From Candidatus Gottesmanbacteria bacterium (lineage in GTDB: Bacteria > Patescibacteriota > Microgenomatia > UBA10105 > UBA927): 64,000 nt of DNA. The DNA is taken from contig OY970230.1 of assembly GCA_963714095.1 (NCBI GenBank), forward strand, positions 388,740 to 452,739, given 5' to 3'. Within the stretch, counting starts at the first letter, position 1; each line of letters opens with the position of its first letter. The notes below the pieces were generated by a model. The model saw nothing but the letters and a program-made list of their open reading frames with translations. It searched no databases and was not told the DNA's origin. Both the position numbers and the translations under genes were made by a program. Positions 3,305 through 64,000 of this stretch are shown here, one piece after another.

Positions 3305-3350
3305 ACTGTTGATTCTACCACGTCCGAACCGTATACTTAAATATATATCC

Positions 3351-7172: not shown

Positions 7173-7178
7173 GCACTC

Positions 7179-7207
7179 ATTGTACTTGCCTAAACGCCTA
7201 TTGACAA
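7179..7207 (-). promoter_or_regulatory. Sigma70-like promoter (TTGTCA-17-TACAAT) ending 6 nt before the AspRS ATG (leaderless)
   Basis: On the minus strand the sequence reads cTTGTCAat aggcgtttaggcaag TACAAT gagtgc ATG. Confidence 0.5.
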
Positions 7208-7344
7208 GATGGAGTCTTATTGGTAAACTCTCTTTTGTATGTTTCAAACGCGCCAAATCAAATGTATTCGAGTTATTACCCTCCATCTTATTGGGGGAAG
7301 GTCGCGTGGTAGATAAATAAAAAGAAACTTTCAAAACCAAGCGA

Positions 7345-7369
7345 CCTCCCAAATATAGGGAGGTTTTTT
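7345..7369 (+). terminator. Rho-independent terminator-like hairpin (CCTCCC-aaatata-GGGAGG + T6). The 3' arm is a perfect SD for a 6-codon mini-ORF at 7370
   Basis: cctcccaaatatagggaggttttttATGagtaaatactatgtgTAA. Confidence 0.55.
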
Positions 7370-7382
7370 ATGAGTAAATACT

Positions 7383-7748
7383 ATGTGTAATGTAGAATCA
7401 GCATATAAAAGACTCACAGGATTGAATCCTCGAAAAGATATTGAACCTCCGTTGCAGGGTGCAGCGCTCGTAAAATCGCTAAAGCAATTACGAAATCCAA
7501 TACCATCAGACGGGGAAATCTTTACAAGGAATACAATAGCACAATATGAAATACTCGAAACTGGAAACGCTTCAGGTGAACAATTTATGCTGGTAGGACG
7601 CCGATTTGAAGACGGTAGATTAGAAGCAACTTTTGTTTTTGGACACAGACTGCAACCTAACACGGTACTTGAAAACATAGATCTAATAGAAAAAGATCGC
7701 TGGGTACCATATACAGAAGAAAACAATAATAGCTTTAGTAGCTTCTAA
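7383..7748 (+). CDS. Hypothetical protein (121 aa)
   Basis: Only ORF evidence; no recognisable motifs. Confidence 0.4.
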   Translation: MCNVESAYKRLTGLNPRKDIEPPLQGAALVKSLKQLRNPIPSDGEIFTRNTIAQYEILETGNASGEQFMLVGRRFEDGRLEATFVFGHRLQPNTVLENIDLIEKDRWVPYTEENNNSFSSF

Positions 7749-7749
7749 A

Positions 7750-9348
7750 TTATGGAATTTGAATATCTTTAATTTTTAATTGCAATTTTTTACTGCCATT
7801 CCAGACGTTCATGTCGATGGTATAGGCTATATCAATCACAGTGCCGTTCTTCAGTTTGGGAGACAAATTGCCCATCCCGAAAGCGATCGCGTCTATAGAA
7901 GACAGCCTCAATTTGAGGTGTTTGCCGTCTGCGCCGACCAACCTGGTCTCCGAAACGGTAACACCGTTTGATGCAAATACCGGCTCGGGGCTGCCGAAAC
8001 CAAAGGGTTCAAATTCCCGAAGTTTTTGCCACAATTCGCCCGTCACTGAAGTAATCGGAAGCTCCGTGTCAATTCTCAGTTCTCGGGTTAACAGTTCATC
8101 TGTCAGTTTTTTATCTGCAATTTTTTCCAATCGCATCTGTAACTCGGCGATATTTTTTGTTTCAACCGTAAAACCTGCCGCCATCGGGTGGCCGCCGACA
8201 TCAACCAGAAGGTCGCTGCAGCTTTTTATTGCCTCCACAATATTAAATCCCGTGATAGATCGCGCCGATCCTTTTGACACCGCTTCCCCGCGGGAAATGA
8301 CGATTGCCGGACGGTAGTATTCTTCGACTAACTTCCCGGCCACCAGACCGATAACCCCGGGATTATATGTTTCATGGGTTACGAATAATAATTTCGGCAA
8401 TCCCTCTTTTGAATGTTCTTTCACTATATTTTTCGCATGAAGTGATGTATCAATCGTCAACTGTTGGCGCTCTTTGTTGGTTAACCCGAGCGTCCGAGCC
8501 AAAACGACTGCCTTATCTTCCCTGTGTGTACACAACAGACGAAGTGCATCCATCGCATGAACGAGTCTGCCCATCGCGTTAAGTCTCGGGGCCAATACGT
8601 GAGAAATATCATACGGAGTAAGCTCACCCGCTACGACTCCGGCGTCACGCATCAAAGCCAGCAGCCCCACCCGCTTTGTTTTATTGAGCTCCAGCAGTCC
8701 GAATTTTACGATCGAACGGTTCGCGCCTGTAAGAGGCACGAGATCCGCAATGGTTCCGATTGCGGCAAGAGCAATATCGGGTGAACCAATCTCTTTTGAT
8801 ACAAACCAAGATACCCCTGCTCCGCAGAGCGCTGTCGTATGGACAATAGTACAATTCGGAAGTTTGTCAGGTTTTACATGGTGATCAGTGACAATAACGT
8901 CAATCCCCAATGATTTTGCATATTCAACGAATTTATACGCGGTAATTCCGTGGTCAACCGTAATAATGAGTGATGGATCATATTGCTGCCGCACCGCATC
9001 TATACCTTTAATAGATAACCCATACCCCTCCTCTACTCTATGGGGAATGTAGGGCATAACATTCCCCGCAATCGCGTGTATCGTCTCCCACATAATGGCC
9101 CCCGCAGTTATCCCGTCCGCGTCATAATCCGCATACACGACGATAGACTCTTTATTTTTTACGGCTTTACGAATTCTTGCAACGGCTTGTTTCAATGCGG
9201 TCTGATTTATACCCACGTCTTTTGACGTAAATTCCGAAGGGTCTTTTGGATGAAGAAAGTTCCCGCTATCCGTGATGTCTCTGTTTTTTAAAAGAACCGC
9301 AATAATATCGTCACTTGGTTTATGTAAAATTTTCCACTTCTTCCCCAT
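7750..9348 (-). CDS. recJ: Single-stranded-DNA-specific exonuclease RecJ
   Basis: DHH motifs (DVIVTDHH) and DHHA1 (GGHPMAAG). 532 aa. Confidence 0.9.
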   Translation of the reverse strand: MGKKWKILHKPSDDIIAVLLKNRDITDSGNFLHPKDPSEFTSKDVGINQTALKQAVARIRKAVKNKESIVVYADYDADGITAGAIMWETIHAIAGNVMPYIPHRVEEGYGLSIKGIDAVRQQYDPSLIITVDHGITAYKFVEYAKSLGIDVIVTDHHVKPDKLPNCTIVHTTALCGAGVSWFVSKEIGSPDIALAAIGTIADLVPLTGANRSIVKFGLLELNKTKRVGLLALMRDAGVVAGELTPYDISHVLAPRLNAMGRLVHAMDALRLLCTHREDKAVVLARTLGLTNKERQQLTIDTSLHAKNIVKEHSKEGLPKLLFVTHETYNPGVIGLVAGKLVEEYYRPAIVISRGEAVSKGSARSITGFNIVEAIKSCSDLLVDVGGHPMAAGFTVETKNIAELQMRLEKIADKKLTDELLTRELRIDTELPITSVTGELWQKLREFEPFGFGSPEPVFASNGVTVSETRLVGADGKHLKLRLSSIDAIAFGMGNLSPKLKNGTVIDIAYTIDMNVWNGSKKLQLKIKDIQIP

Positions 9349-9366
9349 ACACGCTATAATACCAGT

Positions 9367-10698
9367 ATGATTGCATTACCTCAATCAGCTCAAAACATTA
9401 TAGATACCTTTCACAAGGCCGGCTATGAAATTTATGCAGTCGGAGGGTCTGTGCGGGATATTCTTATGGACCGGCCGACACGCGGATGGGACTTTACGAC
9501 GAACGCCACACCGGAAGAAACTCTTACATTATTCCCGGATAGTTTTTATGATAACCAATTCGGTACGGTAGGAATAAAAATCTCGGACGATATTTATGAA
9601 GTGACAACGTACCGAAGCGAAAAAGAATACAAAGATCACCGCCATCCGGATAAAATTCAATGGGGCAAAACGCTTGAAGAGGATCTTTCGCGGCGGGATT
9701 TTACCATTAACGCAATCGCCTACGACGGGAAAACCTTCATGGATCCGTACCACGGGCACGCAGATCTCAAAAATAAAATCATCCGCACAGTCGGAGACGC
9801 GAACGAAAGAATTGAAGAAGACTCTCTACGGATGATGCGCGCAGTCCGTATTGCATCAGAGCTTGGGTTCATGATTGAACCCGAAACACTTGCGGCAATG
9901 AAAACAAACGCCCCTCTCATCAGCGATATTTCTGCAGAACGAATTCATGATGAATTACTCCGGATACTTGCTTCCCCGTTTGCCGCAGACGGAATTTTAC
10001 TTCTTAAACAAACAGGGTTACTGAAAATTATTATTCCGGAACTCGACAGTGCATTCGCTATCGGGCAAAAAAGCCCCAGCCGCCACCACATCTATGATGT
10101 GGGCACCCATAGCGTCATGGCACTGAAAAACTGCCCGACTAAAGATCCGGTCGTTCGATTGGCAACACTCCTTCATGATATCGGAAAAGTACCGACGTAT
10201 AAGGTGGATGAAAAAGGCATCATCACGTTTTATAACCATGAAATGGTCAGTACAAAACTAACAAAACATATTCTTGCGCGGCTTAAATTCTCACGGAAAG
10301 ACACGGAAAAAATACTCACGCTCATCCGCTGGCACCAGTTTACGGTTGACGAACGGCAGACTGACAGTGCGCTTCGTAGATTTATCCGGCATGTGGGAAA
10401 AGAAAATCTTTCGGATATGCTGGCACTTCGGACCGGCGACCGTTTAGGAGGTGGCGCCGCGGAAACCTCGTGGCGCATGGAACTCTTTAAAAAACGGCTT
10501 GATGAAGTCCAAAAACAACCCTTCACCATCGCGGATTTAAAAATCAACGGCTTTGACATCATGAAAGCCTTAAATTGTAAACCCGGCCCGATCATAGGCA
10601 AAGTGTTAAATGACCTCTTTTCCAAAGTCGAGTCCGGAAAACTCCAAAACGAACGGGAAATCCTGCTCAAAGAACTAGAAGAACTAAAAAGGAATTAA
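9367..10698 (+). CDS. cca: CCA-adding tRNA nucleotidyltransferase with HD domain
   Basis: GGSVRD nucleotidyltransferase head and an HD domain (HHIYDVGTH...LLHDIGK). Confidence 0.85.
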   Translation: MIALPQSAQNIIDTFHKAGYEIYAVGGSVRDILMDRPTRGWDFTTNATPEETLTLFPDSFYDNQFGTVGIKISDDIYEVTTYRSEKEYKDHRHPDKIQWGKTLEEDLSRRDFTINAIAYDGKTFMDPYHGHADLKNKIIRTVGDANERIEEDSLRMMRAVRIASELGFMIEPETLAAMKTNAPLISDISAERIHDELLRILASPFAADGILLLKQTGLLKIIIPELDSAFAIGQKSPSRHHIYDVGTHSVMALKNCPTKDPVVRLATLLHDIGKVPTYKVDEKGIITFYNHEMVSTKLTKHILARLKFSRKDTEKILTLIRWHQFTVDERQTDSALRRFIRHVGKENLSDMLALRTGDRLGGGAAETSWRMELFKKRLDEVQKQPFTIADLKINGFDIMKALNCKPGPIIGKVLNDLFSKVESGKLQNEREILLKELEELKRN

Positions 10699-10702
10699 AA
10701 AG

Positions 10703-11527
10703 TTATTTCTTTACACTTTTTCTCTTCTCCCATCTATCCCACAAAGTCAGTATCGGCGTAGCGACGAAGATGGAGGAATAGGCGCCTGATGTCGTGCCGA
10801 TTAAAAGCGCTATCACAAACCATTGGATTGTTTCTCCGCCTAAAAGCACCAATGCCAAAAGCATAAATATAATGGTAAATGAATTGGCGGTGGACCGCCC
10901 AACGGTTTCCGTCATGGCTTTATCGCAAAGCTCGTCAAACGGCAGGCGCTCCCCGCGCTTAAGTAGTTCCCGTATGCGGTCGAATACTACGATGGTATCG
11001 TGTACAGAAAAACTCATCGTGGTCAAAAATGCCGTGACAAACAAGGTATCCACTTCGATGTGATAGAAATGCCCGAAAAGCGAGAAACATCCGACGACAA
11101 CCAGAAGATCATGAATAAGCGCGATAATAGCCGACACCCCGAATTTGATATTTTTAAATGCGTACGCGACATACGCCAGTATTGCAACAATGGCAATAAT
11201 TGCTGCCGTAACGGTTTTTTGGAGTAGCTCCGCACCCAACACGGGACCGACGGTTTCATTGTGCACGACAGTCCCGGAGAGTGAAGCGGGAATCGCTGTA
11301 CTCTGCTGAAAACGCAATATATATGTTCCCGTAGAAGTCTTCTGATACGTTGTCACAGGGAAATATTTGTTCACGGTTTTCTCATCGGTTGCAAGCTCAA
11401 CGAGTGTCCCTCCTGTAAAATCGATGGACGGCCGCAGTCCCCAGCGGATCAATGAATATATTCCCGGCACAAGAACAAGACCGGAAATAATCATATAAAG
11501 CCAGATATATTTAGAAAACCGTATCAT
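10703..11527 (-). CDS. secF: Protein-export membrane protein SecF
   Basis: FTGGTLVEL motif and a 6-transmembrane C-terminal region. The start overlaps secD by 4 nt. Confidence 0.9.
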   Translation of the reverse strand: MIRFSKYIWLYMIISGLVLVPGIYSLIRWGLRPSIDFTGGTLVELATDEKTVNKYFPVTTYQKTSTGTYILRFQQSTAIPASLSGTVVHNETVGPVLGAELLQKTVTAAIIAIVAILAYVAYAFKNIKFGVSAIIALIHDLLVVVGCFSLFGHFYHIEVDTLFVTAFLTTMSFSVHDTIVVFDRIRELLKRGERLPFDELCDKAMTETVGRSTANSFTIIFMLLALVLLGGETIQWFVIALLIGTTSGAYSSIFVATPILTLWDRWEKRKSVKK

Positions 11528-12831
11528 GTTTTCTCCTTATACATCACGCGGATAAATGTTCTGGTGACAACTATGCCGGTAAACAAGCTTGCAAGAACTC
11601 CGATGAACAAAGTTACGGCAAATCCGCGTACTGTGCCGGCGCTCGGCAAAAAATTCCAGTTGCCGGGGTTATAGAGAATCGTACAGGTAATAAGCGTCGT
11701 AAAATTTGCATCCCGTATGCTGTCCCATGCTTTCCCGAATCCCAATTCCATTGCCACCTTCCATGGGCGTCCTGATCGTTTTTCCTCTTTAAACCGTTCA
11801 AAAATAAGAATATTGCTATCAACCGCCATTCCCATAGACAAAATAAACCCTGCGATACCCGGAAGCGTCAGAGTAATCGGAATCCAGCGGAATACGGCAA
11901 ACGTCAGCAAGCCGTAAACCATCAAAGCCATATCAGCAAAAAGCCCCAGCCACCCATACTGGGCAATCATAAAGATAGCGACGATCGTGAGCCCCACAAT
12001 GCCCGCTGTAATACTTTTGGTAACCGACGATGCACCGAGCGTTGCCCCTACCGTTTCTTTCTCAACCACCGTAACCGGCACGGGAAGGGCGCCTGCGTTG
12101 AGCTGCAGGGCAAGCGTTGTTGCCTGATCCTGGGTAAATTGCCCGTTGATAACCGCGGCCCCGTCCGTAATTTCCTGTTTCACAACCGGAGAAGTAATGG
12201 GGGTGTTATCCAGGAAAATGGCCAACGGCTTACCAACGAGACGCTGGGTGACATCGGCAAACTTTTTGGCGCCCGCGGCAGTAAAAGAAATCGCAACCTG
12301 AGGCGCGCCCGTCGTACTGTCAAAGGTCACCTGCGCACGCGTCAGATCCTTACCGGTAATACCTACAGACTTTGTCATGGCAAGAAGATCCGCATACGTG
12401 GTCGTGGCACTTATCGTTGCGTTAGTATTGGTATATTCACGGAAATCCAGTTGCGCGGTCTGCCCGATGAGGGTAATTGCCTGATTCACATCGGATATTC
12501 CGGGAAGCTCCACAATAATACGGTAACTGTTCTGACTGGTTGCGGTTTGCACAACGGGTTCCGTAACACCGAAAAAGTTCACTCGCCGTTCGATTATTTG
12601 TTTTGCTGAATCCAGCGCAGATACGCGGTCCGCCATAGCGATATCTTTCATGTTTGCATCAAGAACCAGCTGTGTACCGCCAGACAGATCCAGCCCGAAC
12701 TTCGTCGTAAAATCCTTGTTAATAGGCCCTATGTGAAACCCCGGGTGATAATTTTGGGGCAAATCGATATATACGGCAAGCACCGTGAGTAACAGAATGA
12801 TGATAAATACGCGGCGGGGATCTTTAAACAT
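11524..12831 (-). CDS. secD: Protein-export membrane protein SecD
   Basis: GLDLSGGTQLVL motif and a periplasmic P1 domain with a transmembrane bundle. Confidence 0.9.
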   Translation of the reverse strand: MFKDPRRVFIIILLLTVLAVYIDLPQNYHPGFHIGPINKDFTTKFGLDLSGGTQLVLDANMKDIAMADRVSALDSAKQIIERRVNFFGVTEPVVQTATSQNSYRIIVELPGISDVNQAITLIGQTAQLDFREYTNTNATISATTTYADLLAMTKSVGITGKDLTRAQVTFDSTTGAPQVAISFTAAGAKKFADVTQRLVGKPLAIFLDNTPITSPVVKQEITDGAAVINGQFTQDQATTLALQLNAGALPVPVTVVEKETVGATLGASSVTKSITAGIVGLTIVAIFMIAQYGWLGLFADMALMVYGLLTFAVFRWIPITLTLPGIAGFILSMGMAVDSNILIFERFKEEKRSGRPWKVAMELGFGKAWDSIRDANFTTLITCTILYNPGNWNFLPSAGTVRGFAVTLFIGVLASLFTGIVVTRTFIRVMYKEKT

Positions 12832-12839
12832 AATTGAAG

Positions 12840-13421
12840 TTAACCTACTAATTCTTCTTCATCTCCGATAATCATACTACGAGACCCTTCAAGTATAGAA
12901 AGGGCAAACGGGTCGCGGCGGCGTTTGCGGAAAATGAACTCTTCCTCCGTCATCACGGTATAATTAATCTCCCGCTCACGCCGTACTTCTTCTGCCTTCA
13001 CCAGTTGGGAAAGCTCCGGCAATACAACATTACCAACGACCAATAAATCTACATCAGTTGAGGATTTTTTTGGCAATCCCCGAAGATATCGGCCTGAAAG
13101 CATGGCAAACTTTATGCGTCCCAGTTTTGCGCGTTGCTTAATAAGATCGTATCCCAAGCCCGACGTTTTTGCTACAAGATCCAGGAGATCGTAGTACAAC
13201 GGATAATCTTTGCGGAAGGAATAAAAGAGCCGGTTTGCCCGCTGCTCTTTTGAAACCATGCCGGCTTTCTCCATGTGGGAAAGTTCCCGGCGTACCGCAT
13301 TTATCTCCTCACCGACCTTGCGAACAATATCACGGACATGAAAAATAGTCCCGGGGTGGGTAAAAAATAGCGTCAATATTTTTACGCGAACCCTGGAAAT
13401 AATAATGTCTTCTAGCGTCAT
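12840..13421 (-). CDS. Winged-HTH regulator fused to a minimal nucleotidyltransferase-like domain
   Basis: N-terminal wHTH (RVKILTLFF...IVRKVGEEINAVRRELSHMEKAGMV). The C-terminal GRYLRG-x8-DVDLLVVG resembles the G[SG]...DxD nucleotidyltransferase motif. A GGAGG SD precedes the ATG. Confidence 0.55.
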   Translation of the reverse strand: MTLEDIIISRVRVKILTLFFTHPGTIFHVRDIVRKVGEEINAVRRELSHMEKAGMVSKEQRANRLFYSFRKDYPLYYDLLDLVAKTSGLGYDLIKQRAKLGRIKFAMLSGRYLRGLPKKSSTDVDLLVVGNVVLPELSQLVKAEEVRREREINYTVMTEEEFIFRKRRRDPFALSILEGSRSMIIGDEEELVG

Positions 13422-13474
13422 AACGCTCCTCCATGGGGCAGAAAAGGCAGATTTTATGTTCTATTCACTATTTT

Positions 13475-14644
13475 CTAATATGTAATCGGCGTACCGGTCG
13501 GAAGCATTTCTATCCAAATCTGACCACGGTTAAAGCTTACCTCTTTACCGTTCGTATCAAAGAATTGGGTACGGGATGTTCTAACTGGTTTTTTCCAGGT
13601 AACTTTTATGATCTTTCCGTCTTGATAGAGAATGCCGTCGCCTGTACCGATATTGTCGTACAATAGATGACCGTGCTCATCAACCGGTCCTGTTTCATCG
13701 GCAAACAAAATGACCACGTCTTTAGCTGTGAGCTGTTCTTTTGTTTCTAAATCCGTTTGAACGACCCCGCCATTAAACCGTTTATAACTGTTCGAGGACT
13801 TATCATAGACCCATTGCACGGTATAATCCGAATATCCCTTCCATGCCGTGAAGGTTGCACTAAATGATGCGCCGCGATCCGACGCTTTTGCGTCGTCTTT
13901 AAACTTCCACGGTACGAAATTTTTATCCCAGGAAACGCCGCTTGCATCAACATTGGTCCATCCGCGTGTAGCAGCCAAAGATAGTAATTTATCCGACACA
14001 CACACCATGGTGTGTTCTGTAGCGACGGGATGATCCAAGCGATCGGGATTCCTGTAGCACGTCGGGAATGAAATACCGAACTGATCCATATCCTTAATGT
14101 TATATTCACCGATCTGACACAGTGCTTTGGCGCGATCATCAACGGTCGTATCGCTGCACACGCCGGCTCCGCCGACATGATTATATAAGGCATCGTATTC
14201 CAGTACCCAAGACAAAAAGTATGTCCGGGCACTCCGAACCGGAGCAAGATTTACTGACTGGGCTGCAATACCGCAGTAAAATACACCCATAAACCGCGTA
14301 ATACCGCCTTCCGCCACCGCCTCATACACGACATCGGCTGACGACAGACCGGATTGTGGTCGTGCGTCGACAGAATTTTCAATCATAACCGCAAGCGGAC
14401 GCCGTTTCTGCCAGATAGCTTCTTCCTGTTTCGTATACAGCTTCCCGTTCAACGGGCACGGCTCAGTACGGGGAATGGAAGGGTCTATAACAAAATGTTG
14501 TTGACTGCCAGTGGTTACCGCAGGAGAAACCGCCGTAATCGACTTGTTGCCGATATACGTAAACGTGGCATAAGATAAACCGCTCGCAATTAAATACACT
14601 GCAAGCCCGATAAACCCCGTCACGATAAAATGTTGTTTATCCAT
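13475..14644 (-). CDS. Membrane-anchored extracytoplasmic protein, DUF3048-like
   Basis: N-terminal transmembrane helix. AEGGITRFMGVFY resembles the DUF3048 (YerB-like) signature. This is a recollection, not a database search. Confidence 0.45.
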   Translation of the reverse strand: MDKQHFIVTGFIGLAVYLIASGLSYATFTYIGNKSITAVSPAVTTGSQQHFVIDPSIPRTEPCPLNGKLYTKQEEAIWQKRRPLAVMIENSVDARPQSGLSSADVVYEAVAEGGITRFMGVFYCGIAAQSVNLAPVRSARTYFLSWVLEYDALYNHVGGAGVCSDTTVDDRAKALCQIGEYNIKDMDQFGISFPTCYRNPDRLDHPVATEHTMVCVSDKLLSLAATRGWTNVDASGVSWDKNFVPWKFKDDAKASDRGASFSATFTAWKGYSDYTVQWVYDKSSNSYKRFNGGVVQTDLETKEQLTAKDVVILFADETGPVDEHGHLLYDNIGTGDGILYQDGKIIKVTWKKPVRTSRTQFFDTNGKEVSFNRGQIWIEMLPTGTPITY

Positions 14645-15125
14645 GTATTTTTTCTCCGAAAGGTTTTGCTTTTTCTACAACAGCCTGTTCTTCTTTCGAC
14701 AAAGCCAGCTCTTTCCCTTTCCCATTACTCACCTCTTTAATATACCACCGATGACCCGTCCTGGCATAGAGTGAAGTCATCACAAGTCCATTATCATGCC
14801 CGTCCAACAATGCTAACGTAAAACTCTGACTCCCTCCCGTATCCGAAAACGGATTAAAACGGACCAGCCCGACCCGCTGAATATGGAGCAGTCCATCTCC
14901 CCTGATTTCGTCTAGCGCTTTATATAAATCCTTGGTCTGACTTTGCAAACCTTTCTGCGTTTGCAATAATGTCTCCAGAACTTCCTTCAATCCTGCCTTA
15001 TTGGTTACTCTTGTAAGAGTATTATAATGCCGGACCATGCGGAATACTATAACCGACAATCCCGCCACCCACGCGATGACTACAAAAAAAATAATCCACC
15101 ATACCGTATCTGAAGTGAACACCAT
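14637..15125 (-). CDS. DUF4446-like membrane-anchored protein
   Basis: N-terminal transmembrane helix, then RFNPFSDTGGSQSF...LLDGHDNGLVMTSLYAR, as in DUF4446. Confidence 0.5.
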   Translation of the reverse strand: MVFTSDTVWWIIFFVVIAWVAGLSVIVFRMVRHYNTLTRVTNKAGLKEVLETLLQTQKGLQSQTKDLYKALDEIRGDGLLHIQRVGLVRFNPFSDTGGSQSFTLALLDGHDNGLVMTSLYARTGHRWYIKEVSNGKGKELALSKEEQAVVEKAKPFGEKIHG

Positions 15126-15208
15126 TGGTATTCATTATACTACGATTCTTATTACTTTTATGTCAATAAGATAGTCAGCAGACGTATGTAGAGTTGACAA
15201 GCGTGCCT

Positions 15209-15236
15209 GCCTCGTGCTACGCTCTCCGCACGAGGC
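15209..15236 (+). promoter_or_regulatory. 9-bp hairpin (GCCTCGTGC/GCACGAGGC) whose 3' arm contains the GAGG SD of the downstream small ORF
   Basis: Read directly from the sequence. A TTGACA at 15194-15199 lies upstream. Confidence 0.4.
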
Positions 15237-15241
15237 TAAGT

Positions 15242-15520
15242 ATGCCTAAAAAATCAAAAAAAGATAAAATCCTCGCTGATATCAGACGAAGAGCACACAC
15301 TGAGCAGTCTGTGACAACCCATCTTCCGACGCTCGTAAAGGAAGACGCTGCTCCAACGTTCCGGTTCCAACTGAAAAAAGAAGTTGCTCCACATGCTCCA
15401 CGGGAGACAGAACAAAATACTTCCGAGCTTGCAGCTGTCAAACGGGATTTATACAAAACATTTATTCTGGCAACTTTGGCAATAGCAGCTGAATTTTTCA
15501 TTTATTGGTTTAAACGATGA
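15242..15520 (+). CDS. Hypothetical small protein with a C-terminal transmembrane anchor (92 aa)
   Basis: The ATG at 15242 is 6 nt after GAGG. The protein has a basic N-terminus and a hydrophobic C-terminus (FILATLAIAAEFFIYWF). The track start at 15194 is a TTG inside the putative promoter. Confidence 0.5.
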   Translation: MPKKSKKDKILADIRRRAHTEQSVTTHLPTLVKEDAAPTFRFQLKKEVAPHAPRETEQNTSELAAVKRDLYKTFILATLAIAAEFFIYWFKR

Positions 15521-15539
15521 GAGGAGGTGAATAAAGAAT

Positions 15540-15683
15540 ATGGCATCAATGTATTGTGTCAAATGTCGCGCAAAGAGAGAAGATCCTAAAGCCGTAAAAG
15601 TGACTATGAAAAACGGCAAGCCCGCAATGAAAGGCAAGTGTCCAGTGTGCGGAACCGGTATGTATAAAATCGGTGCAGCGTAA
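15540..15683 (+). CDS. Small zinc-ribbon protein (47 aa, CxxC...CxxC), not in the ORF track
   Basis: A GGAGGTG SD sits 8 nt upstream. The protein is MASMYCVKCRAKRED...KGKCPVCGTGMYKIGAA, followed by a terminator. Confidence 0.65.
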   Translation: MASMYCVKCRAKREDPKAVKVTMKNGKPAMKGKCPVCGTGMYKIGAA

Positions 15684-15710
15684 GTTTTTTGCAAAGAATT
15701 TTCTGTCTAA

Positions 15711-15740
15711 AACCCCGTCACATGACGGGGTTTTACTTTT
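15711..15740. terminator. Bidirectional rho-independent terminator between convergent genes
   Basis: aaaaCCCCGTCAcatGACGGGGtttt, with U/A runs on both sides. Confidence 0.7.
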
Positions 15741-15743
15741 GCA

Positions 15744-17093
15744 TCAAATATTTATAAACTTCCGTACGTCCTTCCAAACAAATTTAACCCCGATTGATAT
15801 AACATATGTTTCTGCTAATGTAAGACAGCATACAAAGGGTAAATAATAACGGCCCCAATCATTCATAAGATAGTATGTTAGACTCCCAAATACCACAAAT
15901 GTCCATAAAGGTAATAGATATTTTGAATCTATTTTATGTGTAAGGGATATTGAATGAACGGCCTGCCTTATCATGAGGAATAATCCAACCATAAATAAAA
16001 AGAGATCAACGGGATACGTTCGGTTATAGAAATTGGTATAAATTCCGTCTGGAGCTAACGTGTGAGAAAAAATCGCGATTAATGCATTCTTACGATTATA
16101 AATTGCGCTCTCAGGGGATTCAAACCAATATTGTGTTTTTGCATTTTCCAGTCTGCTATGAAACATATACCAGGAATTATATATTGAATTCTGATGGATA
16201 AAAGGATGCAGTAAATAGAAAAACGTAATCATAGTGATTCCAATAGTTACTGCCCCATAGAGCACCTGTCGTAAATTTCGATGAAATGATCTTTCTATTA
16301 GCAAAACCAGAAATATAAAAATGCTTAAATATAATGGAAGCATCAAGGCGCTGGCTTTCGTACCTAATCCTAAGGCGGCATTAACCCCTATTAACAGACT
16401 ATAAATAATAATTTTTTTGGTATTTCTTGTATTTACCGATGATATCCAATAGATGCACAATACTAAGTTCACTAAAAAGAAAAAAAGTTGCATGGAGTCT
16501 GTCATAGCATTTTGACCTTCGATACTCATTAAATAATTAAAAGTAAAAAGCAATGCTCCTATAAATCCATATATCGTATTAAAAATTTTTGATCCAATAA
16601 TAAATATTAAGCCGATTGATCCAATCGTAAAAATTATTCCGGTTACTCTGCCGATCCAAATGATTTTCAAGCAACTACTTAAAGTAGCCGGAAAAGCTGA
16701 AGGTTTTTCGCCCGACAGAGACTGCCACCAAAATTCTCCGTTAACTTTAATACTATTAAAACCGGTTGTCTGAAAGGTTTTTTCAATATCTTTTATTCCG
16801 GCCAAATGAAGGGCCAGGCCGTAAATATAAAGGCCAACCTTTGGTTGGGCGGCCCCCGCCTCATATTCCTCGCTATACCAGCGTTTGTCTTTCAGATCGT
16901 GTTTAACGAAAAGTAAATCAAAATAATAGCTTTTTCTTAAAAACTCATGTTCGTCTACAAAAAAAATATGATTTTTATAATCGTTAAAATACCAGAAAGA
17001 AGCAATTAATATAATTATTAAAAAGAGAATTTTAGATTTGAAAATGCTAATTTTTTTTAAAAATTCACTCATTGTTTGATCGGAAACACTCAT
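15744..17093 (-). CDS. Polytopic membrane protein, probable GT-C family glycosyltransferase (ArnT/PMT-like)
   Basis: About 11 predicted transmembrane helices and a DE motif (FFVDEHEF) in the first loop. The gene is AT-rich. Confidence 0.5.
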   Translation of the reverse strand: MSVSDQTMSEFLKKISIFKSKILFLIIILIASFWYFNDYKNHIFFVDEHEFLRKSYYFDLLFVKHDLKDKRWYSEEYEAGAAQPKVGLYIYGLALHLAGIKDIEKTFQTTGFNSIKVNGEFWWQSLSGEKPSAFPATLSSCLKIIWIGRVTGIIFTIGSIGLIFIIGSKIFNTIYGFIGALLFTFNYLMSIEGQNAMTDSMQLFFFLVNLVLCIYWISSVNTRNTKKIIIYSLLIGVNAALGLGTKASALMLPLYLSIFIFLVLLIERSFHRNLRQVLYGAVTIGITMITFFYLLHPFIHQNSIYNSWYMFHSRLENAKTQYWFESPESAIYNRKNALIAIFSHTLAPDGIYTNFYNRTYPVDLFLFMVGLFLMIRQAVHSISLTHKIDSKYLLPLWTFVVFGSLTYYLMNDWGRYYLPFVCCLTLAETYVISIGVKFVWKDVRKFINI

Positions 17094-59800: not shown

Positions 59801-60221
59801 AATATATGCCCGGGCTGCGGACAAGCTGGTTGACGACACAACGCTCAATTCCGTTAATAATAAAGGTGCCATTCTCCGTCATGGCGGGAATATCACCCAA
59901 AAACACTTCCTGCATCACGCGGTGTCCCGTTTGTTTATTGATGAGCGTGGCCATGACTTTCAGGGGCATGTCGAACGTCAACCCTTTTTCAAGCGCTACC
60001 GGGGGTGTGAGTCTCGGCCGGCCGAAAAAGTAATCGCCGAACGACAATTCCCAGTTTTTACCGGTAAAATCACTGATTGGAGAAACTTCAGAGAGGAGAT
60101 CTTTAATGCCTGTTTCCAAAAACCACTGGTACGATTCCCGTTGTACCAAGGTTAAATCCAGTTGGGGAAGGTTGGTGTGCTCCGTATCCCACAATCGTTT
60201 GCCAGTTGTATCTTTTGCCAT
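56847..60221 (-). CDS. rpoB: DNA-directed RNA polymerase subunit beta
   Basis: Typical RpoB sequence. Start set at MAKDTTG. Confidence 0.97.
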
Positions 60222-60370
60222 TTGTATAAATAAATGCGAAATCGGTACTCTAGTGAACGACGAAAAGAAGCGAACAATGAACGTTCGCCTCGTAAAGGCT
60301 ATTCGACTAAAGAGTATTATAGCGCGTTTCCGCAACCTGTCAAGCTAGGAAAATTTTGGGTACCAATTGA

Positions 60371-60901
60371 TTATTCCTGAGGAAATTTCTCGCCGCCGTA
60401 ACTAGAAGGATCACTGCTAAATTTCCAGTATTGCGTGCCTTCAAATAACATACTTGGATATGAATCATTTTTTAATGTACCAAAAAATAGATAATAGCGA
60501 GTCCTAACCCATGGTTGTTTAAGAATATTATTTTTCCGACCAACCTCTTTTGTGAATCCATTCTGATCACATTTGTTTGAGATTACTATTTCAGACGTCG
60601 TTGTCAGTGTTAAATTATCATCTTTGATTTCCCAAGTTCCTAACTCCTCTTTTTCTTCAATTTGGCAACTCATTTGATTAGGATAAAAATGAAATTTACC
60701 ATCTGAGTAAAAGTTATACCTGTCAGCCCATCCTGAAGCCATACCTCCGCTTGCTTGCCAAATACCAACTAACGTAGCTTTATCAGCTTTTGAAAAAATT
60801 CCAGATATACTCGCATTACGGACTCCAATACAATATCCCAATAGTCCTCCGAGAACAAATAATGCAATAGATAATAAATATTTATTTGTGTTTTTCTTCA
60901 T
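60371..60901 (-). CDS. Hypothetical membrane-anchored secreted protein (AT-rich gene)
   Basis: N-terminal transmembrane/signal anchor. No recognised domain. Confidence 0.45.
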   Translation of the reverse strand: MKKNTNKYLLSIALFVLGGLLGYCIGVRNASISGIFSKADKATLVGIWQASGGMASGWADRYNFYSDGKFHFYPNQMSCQIEEKEELGTWEIKDDNLTLTTTSEIVISNKCDQNGFTKEVGRKNNILKQPWVRTRYYLFFGTLKNDSYPSMLFEGTQYWKFSSDPSSYGGEKFPQE

Positions 60902-60905
60902 TTTG

Positions 60906-61427
60906 TTAATTCGTTGGAAAAAGAATCTTCCCTGTTGTTCTCATTATCAGTTTATTTCCATCAGAACAAGAATTCAAGATCTCCTCACCAAATATTCCTG
61001 GTGGAAAATTAACAAGTTCACTACAACCCGGTATTCCTCCACCTCCAGTCCAAAAATCTGTCCAGCTGCCATTTATTTTGACTGCAGCAAACTGAAAACC
61101 CGTCTGGCTATTGCCAAAACCACCGTATGCATAATTTTTGTTAATGACTTGGATGACAGCATAGTTTTTAGTTTTGTCACATTTATTCTCATTAAAATAC
61201 TCAACACAAGCATCTACTTTGTTCTTTAAATAATTTTCTAATGAAACGTCTTTGAGTTCTGCTGGAAATGGTGTTGGAGTCAGAGTCGAAGTGGATACTA
61301 CGGGTTTCACTGAAGATATAATGTTTGTTGAATAATTTCTGTATGCACGATACCCAACAGCTCCCAAAATAATAATTACTAAAACTAAGATTGGTGAAAA
61401 ACTAGTTTTTTTTGTTTTCTGTTTCAT
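60906..61427 (-). CDS. Hypothetical membrane-anchored secreted protein (AT-rich gene, 4 Cys)
   Basis: N-terminal transmembrane/signal anchor. No recognised domain. Confidence 0.45.
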   Translation of the reverse strand: MKQKTKKTSFSPILVLVIIILGAVGYRAYRNYSTNIISSVKPVVSTSTLTPTPFPAELKDVSLENYLKNKVDACVEYFNENKCDKTKNYAVIQVINKNYAYGGFGNSQTGFQFAAVKINGSWTDFWTGGGGIPGCSELVNFPPGIFGEEILNSCSDGNKLIMRTTGKILFPTN

Positions 61428-61466: not shown

Positions 61467-62501
61467 TTATTCTAGCTCCAAATTTTTTATCGGTGGGAGC
61501 GCCGGGCCGGCGGCACCCTGGATTTGGCCGTAGATTCCGGAAACGCCGGAAAGTAACCGGTGTACCTGCGCTTCACGGAGTTTCCATGATTTTTCAAACG
61601 CCACACGCTCACGGGTTATTTGTTCTAGCATCGACGTGTACACTTCAACCATGGATTCAACCTGCTGTGCAAATTCGTGGCTAGTGACGTATCCATAAAT
61701 CTGTTCTGCTTTTGTCTGCCGGTTATCGGATACAAACTTCTGATATGCCGCATCAATCAAGCTTTTGCGCAGAAGCATCGCAAGCGGGATAAATAATTTC
61801 GGCGAACATACCCACACGCCATCTTTTAACCCCATACCAGTTTTTGCTTCTTCCGGCAGCGTCTCGGAAACTATCGCTGGAATATTAGCTTTATCATTTC
61901 GCATATCTTCTTTTAATTTTGCAATCCACGAGTCGCTCCATGCTTTGGTTCGCTTGGATTCCCAAAGAATAGACCCACAGGTTTTTCCGCCCGGACTTTT
62001 TACCACTTGCCGGATATCCGCGCCCAATACCCCTTTTCCAATCGGCTCGACGGAATCACTGGAAAATGTAACACGAAGTGTTTGTTCCAAATCCAGTTCC
62101 TGCACTTCCCCTTGCAACTGCTGTGAACCTTGCGTCGCTTTCCGCTGCGCATCCTCAAGAGATTTTTTTAAATCATCAATCATTTTGTCTTTTTCTTTTT
62201 CTTTCAACCGCTGCTGCTCAAGGATGGTTTCTTCCGCGGACTTACGGATTTTTTCCCGTTCCGAATCCAACTGTCGCTGTTTATCTAATTCAAATGTACG
62301 CTTCTCTTCATCTAACAAATTTTTTTGTTTCCGGATTGTGAGTTCTGCTTCTTCAGCTTTTTCCAACCGTTGTTTCATTTCCACCAATTCTTTTTCATAT
62401 TTCTTCTTTTCACCCGCAAGTAAATCTTCCTCAATTTGATGCGTTAAGGCATCCGTCAGTTCAAATGATTTATGACAATGCGGACACGTGATGGTGTTCA
62501 T
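61467..62501 (-). CDS. DUF2130-like protein (N-terminal CxxC zinc ribbon, long K/E coiled coil, C-terminal globular domain)
   Basis: MNTITCPHCHKSFELTDAL... The architecture resembles DUF2130 by recollection. Confidence 0.55.
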   Translation of the reverse strand: MNTITCPHCHKSFELTDALTHQIEEDLLAGEKKKYEKELVEMKQRLEKAEEAELTIRKQKNLLDEEKRTFELDKQRQLDSEREKIRKSAEETILEQQRLKEKEKDKMIDDLKKSLEDAQRKATQGSQQLQGEVQELDLEQTLRVTFSSDSVEPIGKGVLGADIRQVVKSPGGKTCGSILWESKRTKAWSDSWIAKLKEDMRNDKANIPAIVSETLPEEAKTGMGLKDGVWVCSPKLFIPLAMLLRKSLIDAAYQKFVSDNRQTKAEQIYGYVTSHEFAQQVESMVEVYTSMLEQITRERVAFEKSWKLREAQVHRLLSGVSGIYGQIQGAAGPALPPIKNLELE

Positions 62502-63325
62502 ATATTTATATAGATATCCTGATTATATCCCCCGACGCCGACAAATTTTGCTTTTCCATTCACAATATTTTCCAAAGGCCTGCACACGCGGCATCCGTCT
62601 TTTTGCTTGCAGACGAAACGATCAAGTTTCCGGGCCAAGACAATCATTTTTGCAAGTTCCATCACGCGGCGGGTTGCATCTTCTCCGGTCGGAAGTGATA
62701 CGGCCGTAGGAACGTCATCGCGGTCGAGATACCAGTAGCTTGCGCCGGCGATTGCTTTTGTCTGACAATGCGCGGCAAGCAGTAAATAAATGGGCAATTG
62801 TAATGAGTCTTCATCCTCATCAAACTTGCCGGTTTTAAAATCTACAATGCGCACCGAATCGGAGTCCGGCACATACTCAAGCCAGTCAATTTTGCCGCAT
62901 AAAATAATGTTGTCATCCTCCGAAAGCCAGTAATACGGAAGTTCCTGACGGATTTTGATGGCCTTGGCGGCAAGCGGCCCGGGATTTATCATAACCCGTG
63001 CAATCATTTTTGCTCCGCGGTCTTTAAACTTCTTTTCCTCTTCCTTATCATGAAATCCACCGCGTTCTCCTTCCACCCTTTTCCATTTTTCCTCATATAG
63101 ATCTAAGAGTTTATCTAAATGACGATCCTCCACCGGCACAGTGGAGAGAGTTTCCAGTACTTCATGCACCACCTGCCCCAGTGCCAGCGGCGGCTCCATG
63201 AGCATCACTTTATGATTTGTTTTCGGGTCGCGGTAAATATTTTTTATAAAGTACGCACGCGGGCATTTGAGGTAATCCCCGATCGAACTATGTGACACCC
63301 ACACGGCCGAATATTTATCTTTCAT
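62498..63325 (-). CDS. PD-(D/E)xK nuclease, Cas4/RecB-like, with 4 Cys (probable Fe-S cluster)
   Basis: IDWLEY...VDFKTGK...QLPIYLL motifs. N-terminal Cys (YLKCPRAYF) and C-terminal CKQKDGCRVC. Overlaps the upstream gene by 4 nt. Confidence 0.6.
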   Translation of the reverse strand: MKDKYSAVWVSHSSIGDYLKCPRAYFIKNIYRDPKTNHKVMLMEPPLALGQVVHEVLETLSTVPVEDRHLDKLLDLYEEKWKRVEGERGGFHDKEEEKKFKDRGAKMIARVMINPGPLAAKAIKIRQELPYYWLSEDDNIILCGKIDWLEYVPDSDSVRIVDFKTGKFDEDEDSLQLPIYLLLAAHCQTKAIAGASYWYLDRDDVPTAVSLPTGEDATRRVMELAKMIVLARKLDRFVCKQKDGCRVCRPLENIVNGKAKFVGVGGYNQDIYINI

Positions 63326-63349
63326 AAACGTACCCAGTATAATACAACC

Positions 63350-64000
63350 ATGGTCCGAAAAGTTCCATCATACGAAATAAAAACGCCGGCAAACCCGTTT
63401 TGTACGTACGGATGGGTGGGTATTTGGCATAAAACGATTGGCAGAGATTGGGATCCATATATATTAAACGTCAATGATGAAGTGATCGCACCATTTGCTC
63501 GAAAAAATAATGAACTAATATTTGCCGGGGGGGGTGAGGTGGCGGACTATCTGGATATTATCGGCACTGATGAGGCGAAAATACGTGTGTGGCCGGAAAT
63601 AATTGAATATCTAAAAACTGATGGCGTTACCTCTGTTCACTTAAATAATATTCCGCAGAATTCTTCTACTCTTTCTTTTTTTAAATCGTATGAAAAAGAA
63701 GATACTACGCCGATGATGACTCTCCCCAACACATGGGATGAATATTTGAAAACTCTCAATAAAAAATCCCGCCACGAAATGGAACGGAAAATCCGTAAAT
63801 TTGAGCGGGAGCAAGAAAATATAAAGATCTATGACAGTGCCGATCCTGTCGCAGATACAGAATTATTTTTGAGGCTTATGAAACTCGACGAACGCAAAAA
63901 ACGTTTTTTAACACTTGATATGGAATCGTTTTTTGAAAAAATAATTGTGGCGTTTCAAAAAACTATTGTATTAACTATATTAACCATCTCCGGTAAACCC
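63350..64000 (+). CDS. GNAT/FemAB-like (Acetyltransf_6, CelD-like) protein, 5' partial (continues past the window end)
   Basis: ATG at 63350 with the reading frame open to the window end (217 codons). ...TWDEYLKTLNKKSRHEMERKIRKF is the typical Acetyltransf_6 pattern. TATAAT 6 nt upstream. Confidence 0.5.
   Translation, partial: MVRKVPSYEIKTPANPFCTYGWVGIWHKTIGRDWDPYILNVNDEVIAPFARKNNELIFAGGGEVADYLDIIGTDEAKIRVWPEIIEYLKTDGVTSVHLNNIPQNSSTLSFFKSYEKEDTTPMMTLPNTWDEYLKTLNKKSRHEMERKIRKFEREQENIKIYDSADPVADTELFLRLMKLDERKKRFLTLDMESFFEKIIVAFQKTIVLTILTISGKP

What the first reader, a model, noticed from the sequence alone, without database searches (positions are those of the whole stretch)
61467..64000. Overlapping DUF2130-like zinc-ribbon/coiled-coil protein and a Cas4-like Fe-S PD-(D/E)xK nuclease, flanked by AT-rich genes: candidate defence or DNA-processing module
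The two genes overlap by 4 nt (translationally coupled). The first has CPHCH, about 150 aa of K/E-rich coiled coil, and a C-terminal globular domain. The second has RecB/Cas4 motifs (IDWL, VDFKTGK, QLPIY) plus 1+3 cysteines in Cas4/AddB Fe-S spacing. Divergently beyond the pair sits a FemAB/CelD-like GNAT gene, and upstream toward rpoB are two AT-rich genes for small secreted proteins. No CRISPR or cas genes are nearby, so this is not a CRISPR adaptation module. The pairing is consistent with a stand-alone nuclease system (defence or repair) of unknown mechanism.
Basis: partly seen in the sequence, partly recalled or inferred. Interest (0 to 1): 0.55.

Follow-up and report, generated by a model that had tools for sequence, protein, structure and literature searches.

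The report
Two nuclease genes sharing one operon
Two DNA-cutting enzyme genes from known families overlap by four bases in this candidate-phylum bacterium, but they sit together only in a narrow group of relatives, so this looks like a local operon of two independent nucleases, not a new conserved two-part system.

The parts
62498..63325 (-). Solo Cas4-family (AddB/AdnA/ACE1-like) PD-(D/E)xK nuclease, 275 aa; first gene of the pair
   Evidence: PF12705 at 1.7e-24. AF2 model pLDDT 90. Foldseek best matches: ACE1 9iab/9iac E 2e-7, AdnA 9np6, AddB 4cej_B, Dna2, RecE.
63263..63265 (-). Cys21, the N-terminal ligand of the predicted [4Fe-4S] 'iron staple'
   Evidence: Invariant in 57 homologues. Some database gene calls start 40 aa later and lose this residue (233-237 aa forms; L002).
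62834..62887 (-). Catalytic D147 (IDWL) and D162-x-K164 (VDFKTGK) of the Cas4-like nuclease
   Evidence: Invariant columns; this is the D-DxK motif described for ACE1/AddB/AdnA (PMC12094033).
62786..62800 (-). QxxxY motif (Q176-Y180, QLPIY)
   Evidence: Invariant columns.
62582..62611 (-). C239-x5-C245-x2-C248, the three C-terminal cluster cysteines
   Evidence: Invariant columns. They lie in a loop region of the AF2 model.
62498..62501 (-). ATGA stop/start overlap between the two genes
   Evidence: Read directly. The same 4-nt overlap occurs in L003, L091, L103, L104 and L108.
61467..62501 (-). DUF2130 protein, 344 aa: CxxC knuckle, long helix, PD-(D/E)xK nuclease domain, C-terminal helical hairpin
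   Evidence: PF09903 at 1.5e-59. AF2 pLDDT 82. Listed in the PD-(D/E)XK superfamily with function unknown (PMC3424549).
62475..62486 (-). Lone CxxC knuckle (C6-P-H-C9) in an N-terminal beta-hairpin
   Evidence: C6 and C9 invariant in A1 and present in 59 of 61 sequences in A3. No other conserved Cys or His nearby.
62127..62459 (-). Long single alpha-helix (residues 15-125), predicted coiled coil of variable length in the family
   Evidence: AF2 secondary structure. Insertions of about 26 aa and long forms of 420-690 aa differ in this region.
61806..62108 (-). PD-(D/E)xK nuclease core of DUF2130 (residues 132-232): E135, D149, D162, E181-x-K183
61500..61802 (-). Two long C-terminal helices (234-272, 275-334) of DUF2130
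   Evidence: AF2 model.

Best explanation
The locus is a lineage-restricted two-gene operon. It encodes two nucleases that are distributed independently of each other. It is not an obligate two-component system.

Gene 1 is a stand-alone Cas4-family nuclease with a D-DxK active site and a predicted [4Fe-4S] 'iron staple'. It is widely conserved in Microgenomates among housekeeping genes. By analogy with its closest structural relatives (ACE1, and the AdnA and AddB nuclease domains), it most likely cuts single-stranded DNA tails of unwound or broken DNA, that is, end processing for repair or recombination.

Gene 2 is a DUF2130 protein: a lone CxxC knuckle, a helix of about 110 aa, and a PD-(D/E)xK endonuclease domain. 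This layout resembles RmuC. It most likely works as a coiled-coil dimer, with the two CxxC knuckles possibly sharing one zinc ion, and cuts DNA.

In Gottesmanbacteria and a few other Microgenomates, DUF2130 sits directly downstream of the Cas4-like gene and is probably co-translated with it. The two may then act on the same DNA substrates, but neither requires the other.

Shown here: the family memberships, the folds, the intact catalytic residues, the overlap, and the narrow distribution of the pairing. Inferred: the substrates, the oligomeric state, zinc and Fe-S binding, and any cooperation between the two proteins.
For: - Family and fold.
- Invariant catalytic and cysteine residues.
- ATGA overlap.
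- From the DUF2130 side (80 GTDB-species loci): the Cas4-like gene is adjacent only in two Gottesmanbacteria (L003, L009), 2 kb upstream in three Collierbacteria-type loci, 5 kb away in L067, and absent within 8 kb in the remaining loci. Those include Levyibacteria, Paceibacterota, Saccharibacteria and Moraniibacteria.
- From the Cas4-like side (80 metagenome loci): DUF2130 is immediately downstream in 7, lies 1.3-2.2 kb downstream in 3, and is absent in 44 loci that have at least 1.5 kb of downstream sequence.
- The Cas4-like gene runs straight into rpoB in L084 (80% identity) and in L093, L097 and L100.
- One intervening TspO gene separates the pair in L083.
- Where both genes are present, their identities to the window proteins co-vary (r = 0.81, n = 14), which fits vertical co-inheritance with losses.
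- The setting is housekeeping and the GC content matches the genome.
- rpoB has its own perfect consensus promoter, so the pair is a separate transcription unit.
- ACE1, AdnA and AddB biochemistry: PMC12094033.
Against: - The 4-nt overlap persists down to about 62% identity of the Cas4-like protein (L104, L108). DUF2130 is also the single most frequent neighbour of the Cas4-like gene (9 of 80 loci). Some functional coupling within this clade therefore cannot be excluded.
- No biochemical data exist for any DUF2130 protein.
- Outside CPR, DUF2130 sits among defence genes. Its role here could therefore be defence and not repair.
- Whether genomes that lack the adjacent DUF2130 carry a copy elsewhere was not determined.
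Confidence: 0.55

Rival explanations
1. DUF2130 is an accessory, stand-alone defence-type nuclease that degrades foreign DNA. It landed by chance downstream of a housekeeping Cas4-like gene in this lineage, and the pairing has no functional meaning.
For: - In non-CPR phyla, DUF2130 lies in defence-island settings. A DrmD-like SNF2 helicase, an HATPase_c_3 protein, SIR2-HerA and type III Mod/Res surround it in L040, L044, L049 and L053.
- An AAA_13 (PDC-S06) ATPase lies immediately downstream in four loci (L034, L052, L056, L058) and immediately upstream in L070.
- AAA_21, AAA_15, TIR, PemK and RhuM proteins occur among the immediate neighbours. At least 13 of about 66 non-CPR loci carry one of the three recurrent defence families within three genes.
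- DUF2130 is present or absent at the same Cas4-to-rpoB site among close relatives.
- It lies next to an IS1595 transposase in L048.
- It occurs on 45 plasmids, in accessory regions with Fic, ImmA/IrrE and restriction genes.
- The family is sporadic: 4262 clusters at 50% identity.
Against: - In CPR the gene sits among housekeeping genes, with host-like GC and no flanking repeats.
- CPR copies are strongly conserved (60-94% identity across many Microgenomates), and their divergence tracks that of the Cas4-like gene.
- No PADLOC or PHROGs model matches it.
- The defence-island association was counted without a matched control.
Confidence: 0.25
2. The two proteins form a real two-nuclease machine specific to some Microgenomates. 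The coiled-coil DUF2130 dimer binds or bridges DNA and makes the first cut. The Fe-S Cas4-like nuclease then trims the single-stranded ends. This would be a minimal substitute for SbcCD or AddAB-type end processing, or a defence effector pair.
For: - Translational coupling through ATGA is conserved in five independent loci down to 62% identity.
- The gene order is always Cas4-like then DUF2130, on the same strand, even when 1-3 genes intervene (L004-L006, L083, L094-L098).
- The two proteins co-vary in divergence.
Against: - Each gene occurs without the other nearby in most relatives, including other CPR classes.
- Intervening unrelated genes (TspO, opposite-strand ORFs) break the operon in several lineages.
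- No interaction data exist, and no multimer model could be run.
Confidence: 0.15
3. Both nucleases serve nucleotide salvage. They would degrade imported or damaged DNA to feed a CPR cell that cannot make nucleotides de novo.
For: This is inference only. Two genes upstream on the other side of the GNAT gene lies a pyrimidine-nucleoside-phosphorylase-type gene (PF02885/PF00591/PF07831), and that synteny recurs in L084. That CPR bacteria depend on salvage is general knowledge and was not tested here.
Against: - Neither protein has a signal peptide or membrane segment.
- The closest relatives of both are repair, recombination or defence nucleases.
- The association with the phosphorylase gene is ordinary synteny between close relatives.
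Confidence: 0.05

Closest known systems
[quoted passage not shown]
   Same: These are the best structural matches to the 275-aa protein: Foldseek E 2e-7 to 2e-5, TM 0.56-0.62 for ACE1. They share similar size (about 270 aa for ACE1), the D-DxK active site, and the pattern of one N-terminal plus three C-terminal cysteines that hold a [4Fe-4S] cluster (PMC12094033).
   Different: No Argonaute gene is nearby. There is no fused helicase or inactivated-helicase body as in AddB or AdnA. Sequence similarity to ACE1 is marginal (profile E 0.003-0.005). The cysteine spacing is C-x5-C-x2-C.
CRISPR-associated Cas4 (TIGR00372 / PF01930)
   Same: It belongs to the same PD-(D/E)xK Cas4/RecB-like family, with a QxxxY motif and 1+3 cysteines. 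There are weak hits to Cas4 models (3e-8; 8e-9 in PADLOC).
   Different: Scores fall below the curated cutoffs (33.7 bits against 65; 17.8 against 22.7). True Cas4 structures match only at E about 1e-2. There is no CRISPR array or cas gene.
RmuC (PF02646; E. coli YigN), and the RmuC-domain defence protein ShdA of the Shield system
   Same: The overall layout is the same: an N-terminal long coiled coil followed by a PD-(D/E)xK nuclease domain. In a profile-profile alignment the motifs line up in register: QGE helix with GxWGE, GAD with PD, ILWESK with VIDAK, and VWVxSP with VxLVSP. An RmuC domain was reported as co-opted for phage defence (title of PMC10270631; the paper was not read).
   Different: There is no Pfam RmuC hit at E up to 0.1. 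The hhalign score is weak (P 0.045, probability 1%), and the test against E. coli RmuC alone was negative. DUF2130 has a CxxC knuckle at its N terminus. From my own knowledge, E. coli RmuC has a hydrophobic N terminus there; this was not tested. Homology closer than superfamily level is not established.
Rad50/SbcC zinc hook
   Same: A single CxxC motif sits at the end of a long coiled coil. That motif alone cannot bind zinc with four ligands, which suggests zinc coordination between subunits.
   Different: This resemblance is recalled from memory and was not tested. DUF2130 has no ABC ATPase head, the CxxC is at the N terminus and not at a coiled-coil apex, and no multimer model or metal analysis was possible.

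Membership tests
DUF2130 (PF09903 / COG4487) | Pfam HMM score above the gathering threshold over the full domain | tested here: met
   201.8 bits against 26.7; residues 98-343 cover profile positions 2-252 of 255.
DUF2130 (PF09903 / COG4487) | PD-(D/E)xK catalytic residues and restriction-endonuclease fold | tested here: met
   Only C6 and C9 are conserved; 56 of 61 family members have exactly two N-terminal cysteines, and the histidines are not conserved. The Zn_ribbon_4 hit scores 16.5 bits against a cutoff of 30.3.
PDDEXK_1 / Cas4 family in the broad sense (PF12705) | Pfam HMM above threshold; D-DxK and QxxxY motifs | tested here: met
   87.6 bits against 22. D147, D162, K164, Q176 and Y180 are invariant.
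PDDEXK_1 / Cas4 family in the broad sense (PF12705) | One N-terminal plus three C-terminal cysteines binding a [4Fe-4S] cluster | tested here: inconclusive
   The four cysteines are present and invariant (C21, C239, C245, C248), but the spacing is C-x5-C-x2-C. Cluster binding cannot be tested with these tools.
CRISPR-associated Cas4 proper (TIGR00372, PF01930) | Score above the curated equivalog or gathering cutoff | tested here: not met
   33.7 bits against 65; 17.8 against 22.7.
CRISPR-associated Cas4 proper (TIGR00372, PF01930) | Location next to cas1/cas2 and a CRISPR array | tested here: not met
   No arrays in the 64 kb. No cas genes in the annotated flanks.
AddB / AdnA helicase-nuclease subunits | Nuclease domain fused to a (pseudo)helicase body of about 800-1100 aa, encoded next to AddA/AdnB | tested here: not met
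   The protein is 275 aa and consists of the nuclease domain only. No UvrD-type gene lies within about 10 kb on either side.
APACE1 (pAgo + ACE1) | Co-encoded long-A Argonaute | tested here: not met
   The neighbours are GNAT, DUF2130, small ORFs and rpoB.
RmuC (PF02646) | Sequence-profile membership | tested here: not met
   No PF02646 hit at E up to 0.1. hhalign against 13 RmuC sequences gives P 0.045 and probability 1%.
RmuC (PF02646) | Architecture: coiled coil followed by a PD-(D/E)xK domain, with motifs in the same order | tested here: met
   AF2 helix 15-125 followed by the nuclease core. The motif register matches in the hhalign alignment.
Known anti-phage defence system (PADLOC-DB v2.0) | Significant match of the components to the system's models, with the system's other genes present | tested here: not met
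   DUF2130 gives only coiled-coil noise (LmuB 0.0067). The Cas4-like protein gives weak hits to Cas4, Aga nuclease and DruK models, with no partner genes present.
   Adjacent in 2 of 80 DUF2130 loci and 7 of 80 Cas4-like loci, all within Gottesmanbacteria-like Microgenomates.

The most novel reading that the evidence does not exclude
DUF2130 is an unrecognised family of coiled-coil defence nucleases whose lone CxxC forms a Rad50-like zinc hook between subunits. In Gottesmanbacteria it has been captured into a translationally coupled operon with a solo Cas4-family Fe-S nuclease. Together they would form a helicase-free two-nuclease system that cuts and then trims invading or broken DNA.
Probability: 0.12. 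Interest if true: 0.6.

Novelty: new member of a known kind. Interest (0 to 1): 0.3.

Why it matters
If the ordinary reading is right, the locus adds little. Both genes belong to catalogued families, and their adjacency is a clade-specific operon.

The useful by-products concern DUF2130:
- It is a completely uncharacterised but fairly widespread nuclease family (4262 clusters at 50% identity).
- Its architecture is now defined: a lone CxxC knuckle, a coiled coil of variable length, a PD-(D/E)xK core with five invariant acidic or basic residues, and a helical hairpin.
- In non-CPR bacteria it tends to sit among defence genes.
- It is absent from PADLOC v2.0.

That makes DUF2130 a reasonable candidate for experimental phage-defence or recombination assays. 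The solo Cas4-like nuclease, widely conserved among housekeeping genes in Microgenomates, is a candidate for the DNA end-processing nuclease of these reduced genomes.

Tried and rejected
- CRISPR adaptation module: rejected. There are no arrays or cas genes, and scores fall below the Cas4 cutoffs.
- Complete zinc ribbon in DUF2130: rejected. Only one CxxC is conserved.
- Known defence system: PADLOC gave nothing meaningful for DUF2130 and only weak generic Cas4-type hits for the other protein. PHROGs gave nothing for DUF2130 and a generic phage exonuclease family for the Cas4-like protein.
- Mobile element or recent insertion of the pair: no flanking direct or inverted repeats of note, and the GC content matches the genome. 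The Cas4-like protein has no tblastn match in phages. DUF2130 matches only seven near-identical Helicobacter heilmannii prophage records and 45 plasmids, mostly from Bradyrhizobium.
- Solved structures by sequence: none for DUF2130. Only marginal ACE1 hits for the Cas4-like protein.
- RmuC homology: the single-sequence hhalign test was negative. A 13-sequence RmuC profile gave a weak alignment with the motifs in register (P 0.045). This is reported as an architectural resemblance only.
- An alternative conserved partner for DUF2130 in other CPR lineages: none was found. The neighbours are PGA_cap, MetK, DUF5671, IS1595 and GT2 proteins.
- One call failed on a coordinate error and was repeated.
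Full report
**Observation**

The region holds two overlapping ORFs on the minus strand. The first is a 275-aa ORF at 63325..62498 and the second a 344-aa ORF at 62501..61467. The stop codon of the first and the start codon of the second share the tetranucleotide ATGA, read directly.

Pfam assigns the first ORF to PDDEXK_1 (PF12705, 1.7e-24) and the second to DUF2130 (PF09903, 1.5e-59). Both scores are far above the curated cutoffs.

Exact-sequence look-up and close homologues place the window in a Candidatus Gottesmanbacteria (Microgenomates, CPR) chromosome.

The gene order in the direction of transcription is:
- Cas4-like gene;
- DUF2130;
- two AT-rich small ORFs with N-terminal hydrophobic segments (GC 0.34 against about 0.47);
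- rpoB, rpoC, rpsL, rpsG.

A divergent Acetyltransf_6/FemAB-like gene starts 24 nt beyond the Cas4-like start codon. No tandem array, no Rfam family and no cas gene is present.

rpoB has its own perfect consensus promoter (TTGACA-16-TATAAT, 60343-60316). The pair is therefore not simply part of the rpoBC transcript.

**The Cas4-like protein**

In an alignment of 57 homologues (65-91% identity), the following residues are invariant:
- D147;
- D162-x-K164;
- Q176-xxx-Y180;
- H54;
- four cysteines: C21, C239, C245 and C248.

The AF2 model is confident (pLDDT 90, pTM 0.85). Its best Foldseek matches in the PDB are, in order:
- ACE1, the Argonaute-associated Cas4-family enzyme (E 2e-7);
- the AdnA nuclease domain;
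- AddB;
- Dna2;
- RecE.

Bona fide CRISPR Cas4 structures match only at E about 1e-2. The curated Cas4 models are missed: 33.7 bits against a cutoff of 65, and 17.8 against 22.7.

ACE1, AdnA and AddB all use the D-DxK site to cut single-stranded DNA of unwound duplex ends. All hold a [4Fe-4S] cluster with one N-terminal and three C-terminal cysteines (PMC12094033).

The protein is therefore a stand-alone ("solo") Cas4-family nuclease with intact catalytic residues.

Two caveats apply. First, the spacing of the three C-terminal cysteines is C-x5-C-x2-C, whereas from my own knowledge AddB and Cas4 have C-x2-C-x5-C. Second, cluster binding is inferred, not shown.

Several database gene calls start about 40 residues too late and lose C21. 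The long start is supported by conservation of residues 1-40.

**The DUF2130 protein**

The globular domain is in fact a second PD-(D/E)xK nuclease.
- E135, D149, D162 and E181-x-K183 are invariant in 61 diverse family members with 37-58% identity to the window protein.
- The AF2 model (pLDDT 82) places D162 at the start of a beta-strand and E181-x-K183 at the end of the following strand.
- This agrees with the 2012 catalogue of the superfamily, which lists DUF2130 (COG4487) with function "unknown" (PMC3424549).

The N terminus is a beta-hairpin carrying a single CxxC. Family-wide there are exactly two cysteines there (56 of 61 sequences) and no conserved histidine. A mononuclear four-ligand zinc site within one chain is therefore not possible. 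Zinc coordination between two subunits at the end of the coiled coil is an attractive but untested inference.

A single helix of about 110 residues follows. Its length varies across the family, with 26-aa insertions and long forms of 420-690 aa.

No paper in the searchable library reports any function for the family.

The closest known architecture is RmuC: a coiled coil followed by a PD-(D/E)xK domain.
- A profile-profile comparison with 13 diverse RmuC sequences gave only P 0.045.
- The alignment nevertheless put the QGE helix, the GAD motif, the ExK motif and a VWVxSP motif in register with their RmuC counterparts.
- A single-sequence test was negative, and Pfam gives no RmuC hit.
- I therefore report a resemblance in layout, not membership.

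**Is the pair conserved?**

From the DUF2130 side, a scan of one genome per GTDB species returned 80 loci with 8-kb flanks from many phyla. A profile of the Cas4-like protein found a partner as follows:
- directly upstream only in two Gottesmanbacteria: L003 with the same 4-nt overlap, and L009 with a 17-nt gap;
- about 2 kb upstream, with three intervening genes, in three Collierbacteria-type loci (L004-L006);
- 5 kb upstream in L067;
- nowhere within 8 kb in the remaining loci, which include Levyibacteria, Paceibacterota, Saccharibacteria and Moraniibacteria, apart from one weak hit (2.5e-05) to a 1193-aa ORF downstream of DUF2130 in L025, which is not a Cas4-like homologue of this size.

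From the Cas4-like side, 80 metagenome loci with 53-89% identity gave these counts:
- DUF2130 immediately downstream in 7, four of them with the ATGA overlap, all at 61% identity or more;
- DUF2130 1.3-2.2 kb downstream in 3;
- no DUF2130 in 44 loci that have at least 1.5 kb of downstream sequence.

In a Gottesmanbacteria genome with an 80%-identical Cas4-like protein and otherwise identical synteny, the gene runs straight into rpoB (L084). The same holds in L093, L097 and L100. In another Microgenomates genome, a TspO gene separates the two (L083).

Where both genes are present, their identities to the window proteins co-vary (r = 0.81, n = 14; the points are not phylogenetically independent). 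This fits vertical co-inheritance with repeated loss or rearrangement.

Other neighbours of the Cas4-like gene are housekeeping genes: rpoB, YceG, a small GIY-YIG protein, PPIase, a MiaB-like enzyme, DinB and FtsEX. Other CPR neighbours of DUF2130 are PGA_cap, MetK, DUF5671, an IS1595 transposase and GT2 enzymes.

The pairing is thus real but confined to a subclade, and it is easily broken.

**DUF2130 outside CPR**

Among about 66 non-CPR loci, the immediate neighbourhood is variable but repeatedly of the defence-island type.
- A DrmD-like SNF2 helicase (PADLOC 7e-211), an HATPase_c_3 protein, SIR2-HerA and a type III methyltransferase and restriction enzyme surround DUF2130 in several Nitrospira and other loci.
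- An AAA_13 ATPase (PADLOC candidate PDC-S06) lies next to DUF2130 in five loci: immediately downstream in four and immediately upstream in one.
- AAA_21, AAA_15, TIR, PemK and RhuM proteins also occur among the 123 immediate neighbours scanned.
- At least 13 loci carry one of the three recurrent families within three genes.
- No PDDEXK_1 partner occurs there.

DUF2130 is rare on sequenced mobile elements. It matches seven near-identical Helicobacter heilmannii prophage records and 45 of 72,556 plasmids, mostly Bradyrhizobium megaplasmids in accessory regions.

This association was counted without a matched control. It is a lead, not a finding.

**Explanation**

The best-supported reading (confidence about 0.55) is a lineage-restricted operon of two independently distributed nucleases.
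- The Cas4-family enzyme probably trims single-stranded tails or flaps at DNA ends, by analogy with ACE1, AdnA and AddB.
- DUF2130 is probably a dimeric coiled-coil endonuclease with an RmuC-like layout.
- Co-translation may let them act on the same substrates in this clade, but neither depends on the other.

The rivals are:
- DUF2130 is an accessory defence nuclease that landed beside a housekeeping gene (0.25);
- the two form a real two-nuclease complex specific to these Microgenomates (0.15);
- both serve nucleotide salvage (0.05).

What is shown: family membership, folds, conserved catalytic residues, the overlap, and the distribution of the pairing. What is inferred: substrates, metal sites, oligomeric state and any cooperation.

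**Novelty and score**

Both genes are members of catalogued families, and the pairing is clade-specific. I rate this "new member of a known kind" with interest 0.3.

The most novel reading not excluded is a zinc-hook coiled-coil defence nuclease coupled to a solo Cas4 nuclease. I give it a probability of about 0.12; it would merit an interest of about 0.6 if true.

Noticed in passing
window 60194-60343 (minus strand, upstream of rpoB): A perfect sigma-70 consensus promoter (TTGACA-16-TATAAT, 60343-60316) is followed by a terminator-like hairpin with a T-run (60291-60267). A 16-nt tandem repeat of 2.1 copies lies at 60194-60227. All of this sits in the apparent rpoB leader; the listed TTG start at 60335 is probably too far upstream and the real start near 'MAKDTT'. 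It looks like a dedicated rpoB promoter with a possible attenuator.
   Followed up: no
window 60371-61427 (minus strand): Two small ORFs (173 and 176 aa) have N-terminal hydrophobic anchors and GC of only 0.34, against about 0.47 for their neighbours. They have no Pfam, NCBIfam or PHROGs family; the second gives only a sub-threshold lipocalin-like hit. They are absent from the same position in related Gottesmanbacteria, where DUF2130 (L003) or the Cas4-like gene (L084) abuts rpoB directly. This looks like a lineage-specific insertion.
   Followed up: partly
L040, L044, L049, L053 (Nitrospira-type loci), about 3000-16000 in each: A gene string recurs here: a DrmD-like SNF2 helicase, an HATPase_c_3 or other gene, long-form DUF2130, a variable insert (SIR2-HerA or an LmuB-like ATPase), a type III methyltransferase and a type III restriction enzyme. 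DUF2130 is embedded in a composite defence island.
   Followed up: partly
L034, L052, L056, L058, L070: An AAA_13 ATPase of about 750-790 aa (PADLOC candidate PDC-S06, up to 1e-286) lies next to DUF2130 on the same strand, immediately downstream in four loci and immediately upstream in L070. It may be a second, different recurrent partner of DUF2130 in Proteobacteria and Acidobacteria.
   Followed up: no
L009 (9234-10370), L010 (1333-2328), L083 (8591-9562): A PGA_cap (CapA-like) gene lies within one to three genes of DUF2130 in three different CPR lineages. This could be shared synteny or a weak association.
   Followed up: no
L002 and the 233-237 aa entries: Many database gene calls for the Cas4-like protein start about 40 codons late. 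They omit the conserved N terminus, including Cys21, the first predicted Fe-S ligand.
   Followed up: yes
L111, L114, L115, L130, L142, L159: A small GIY-YIG-type protein of about 81 aa lies within three genes of the Cas4-like gene in six more distant CPR metagenome loci, immediately adjacent in five of them and often on the opposite strand.
   Followed up: no
window 1-64000: No Rfam family reaches its gathering score anywhere in the 64 kb. The window covers the rpoBC region, ribosomal protein S12 and S7 genes and many further ORFs.
   Followed up: no
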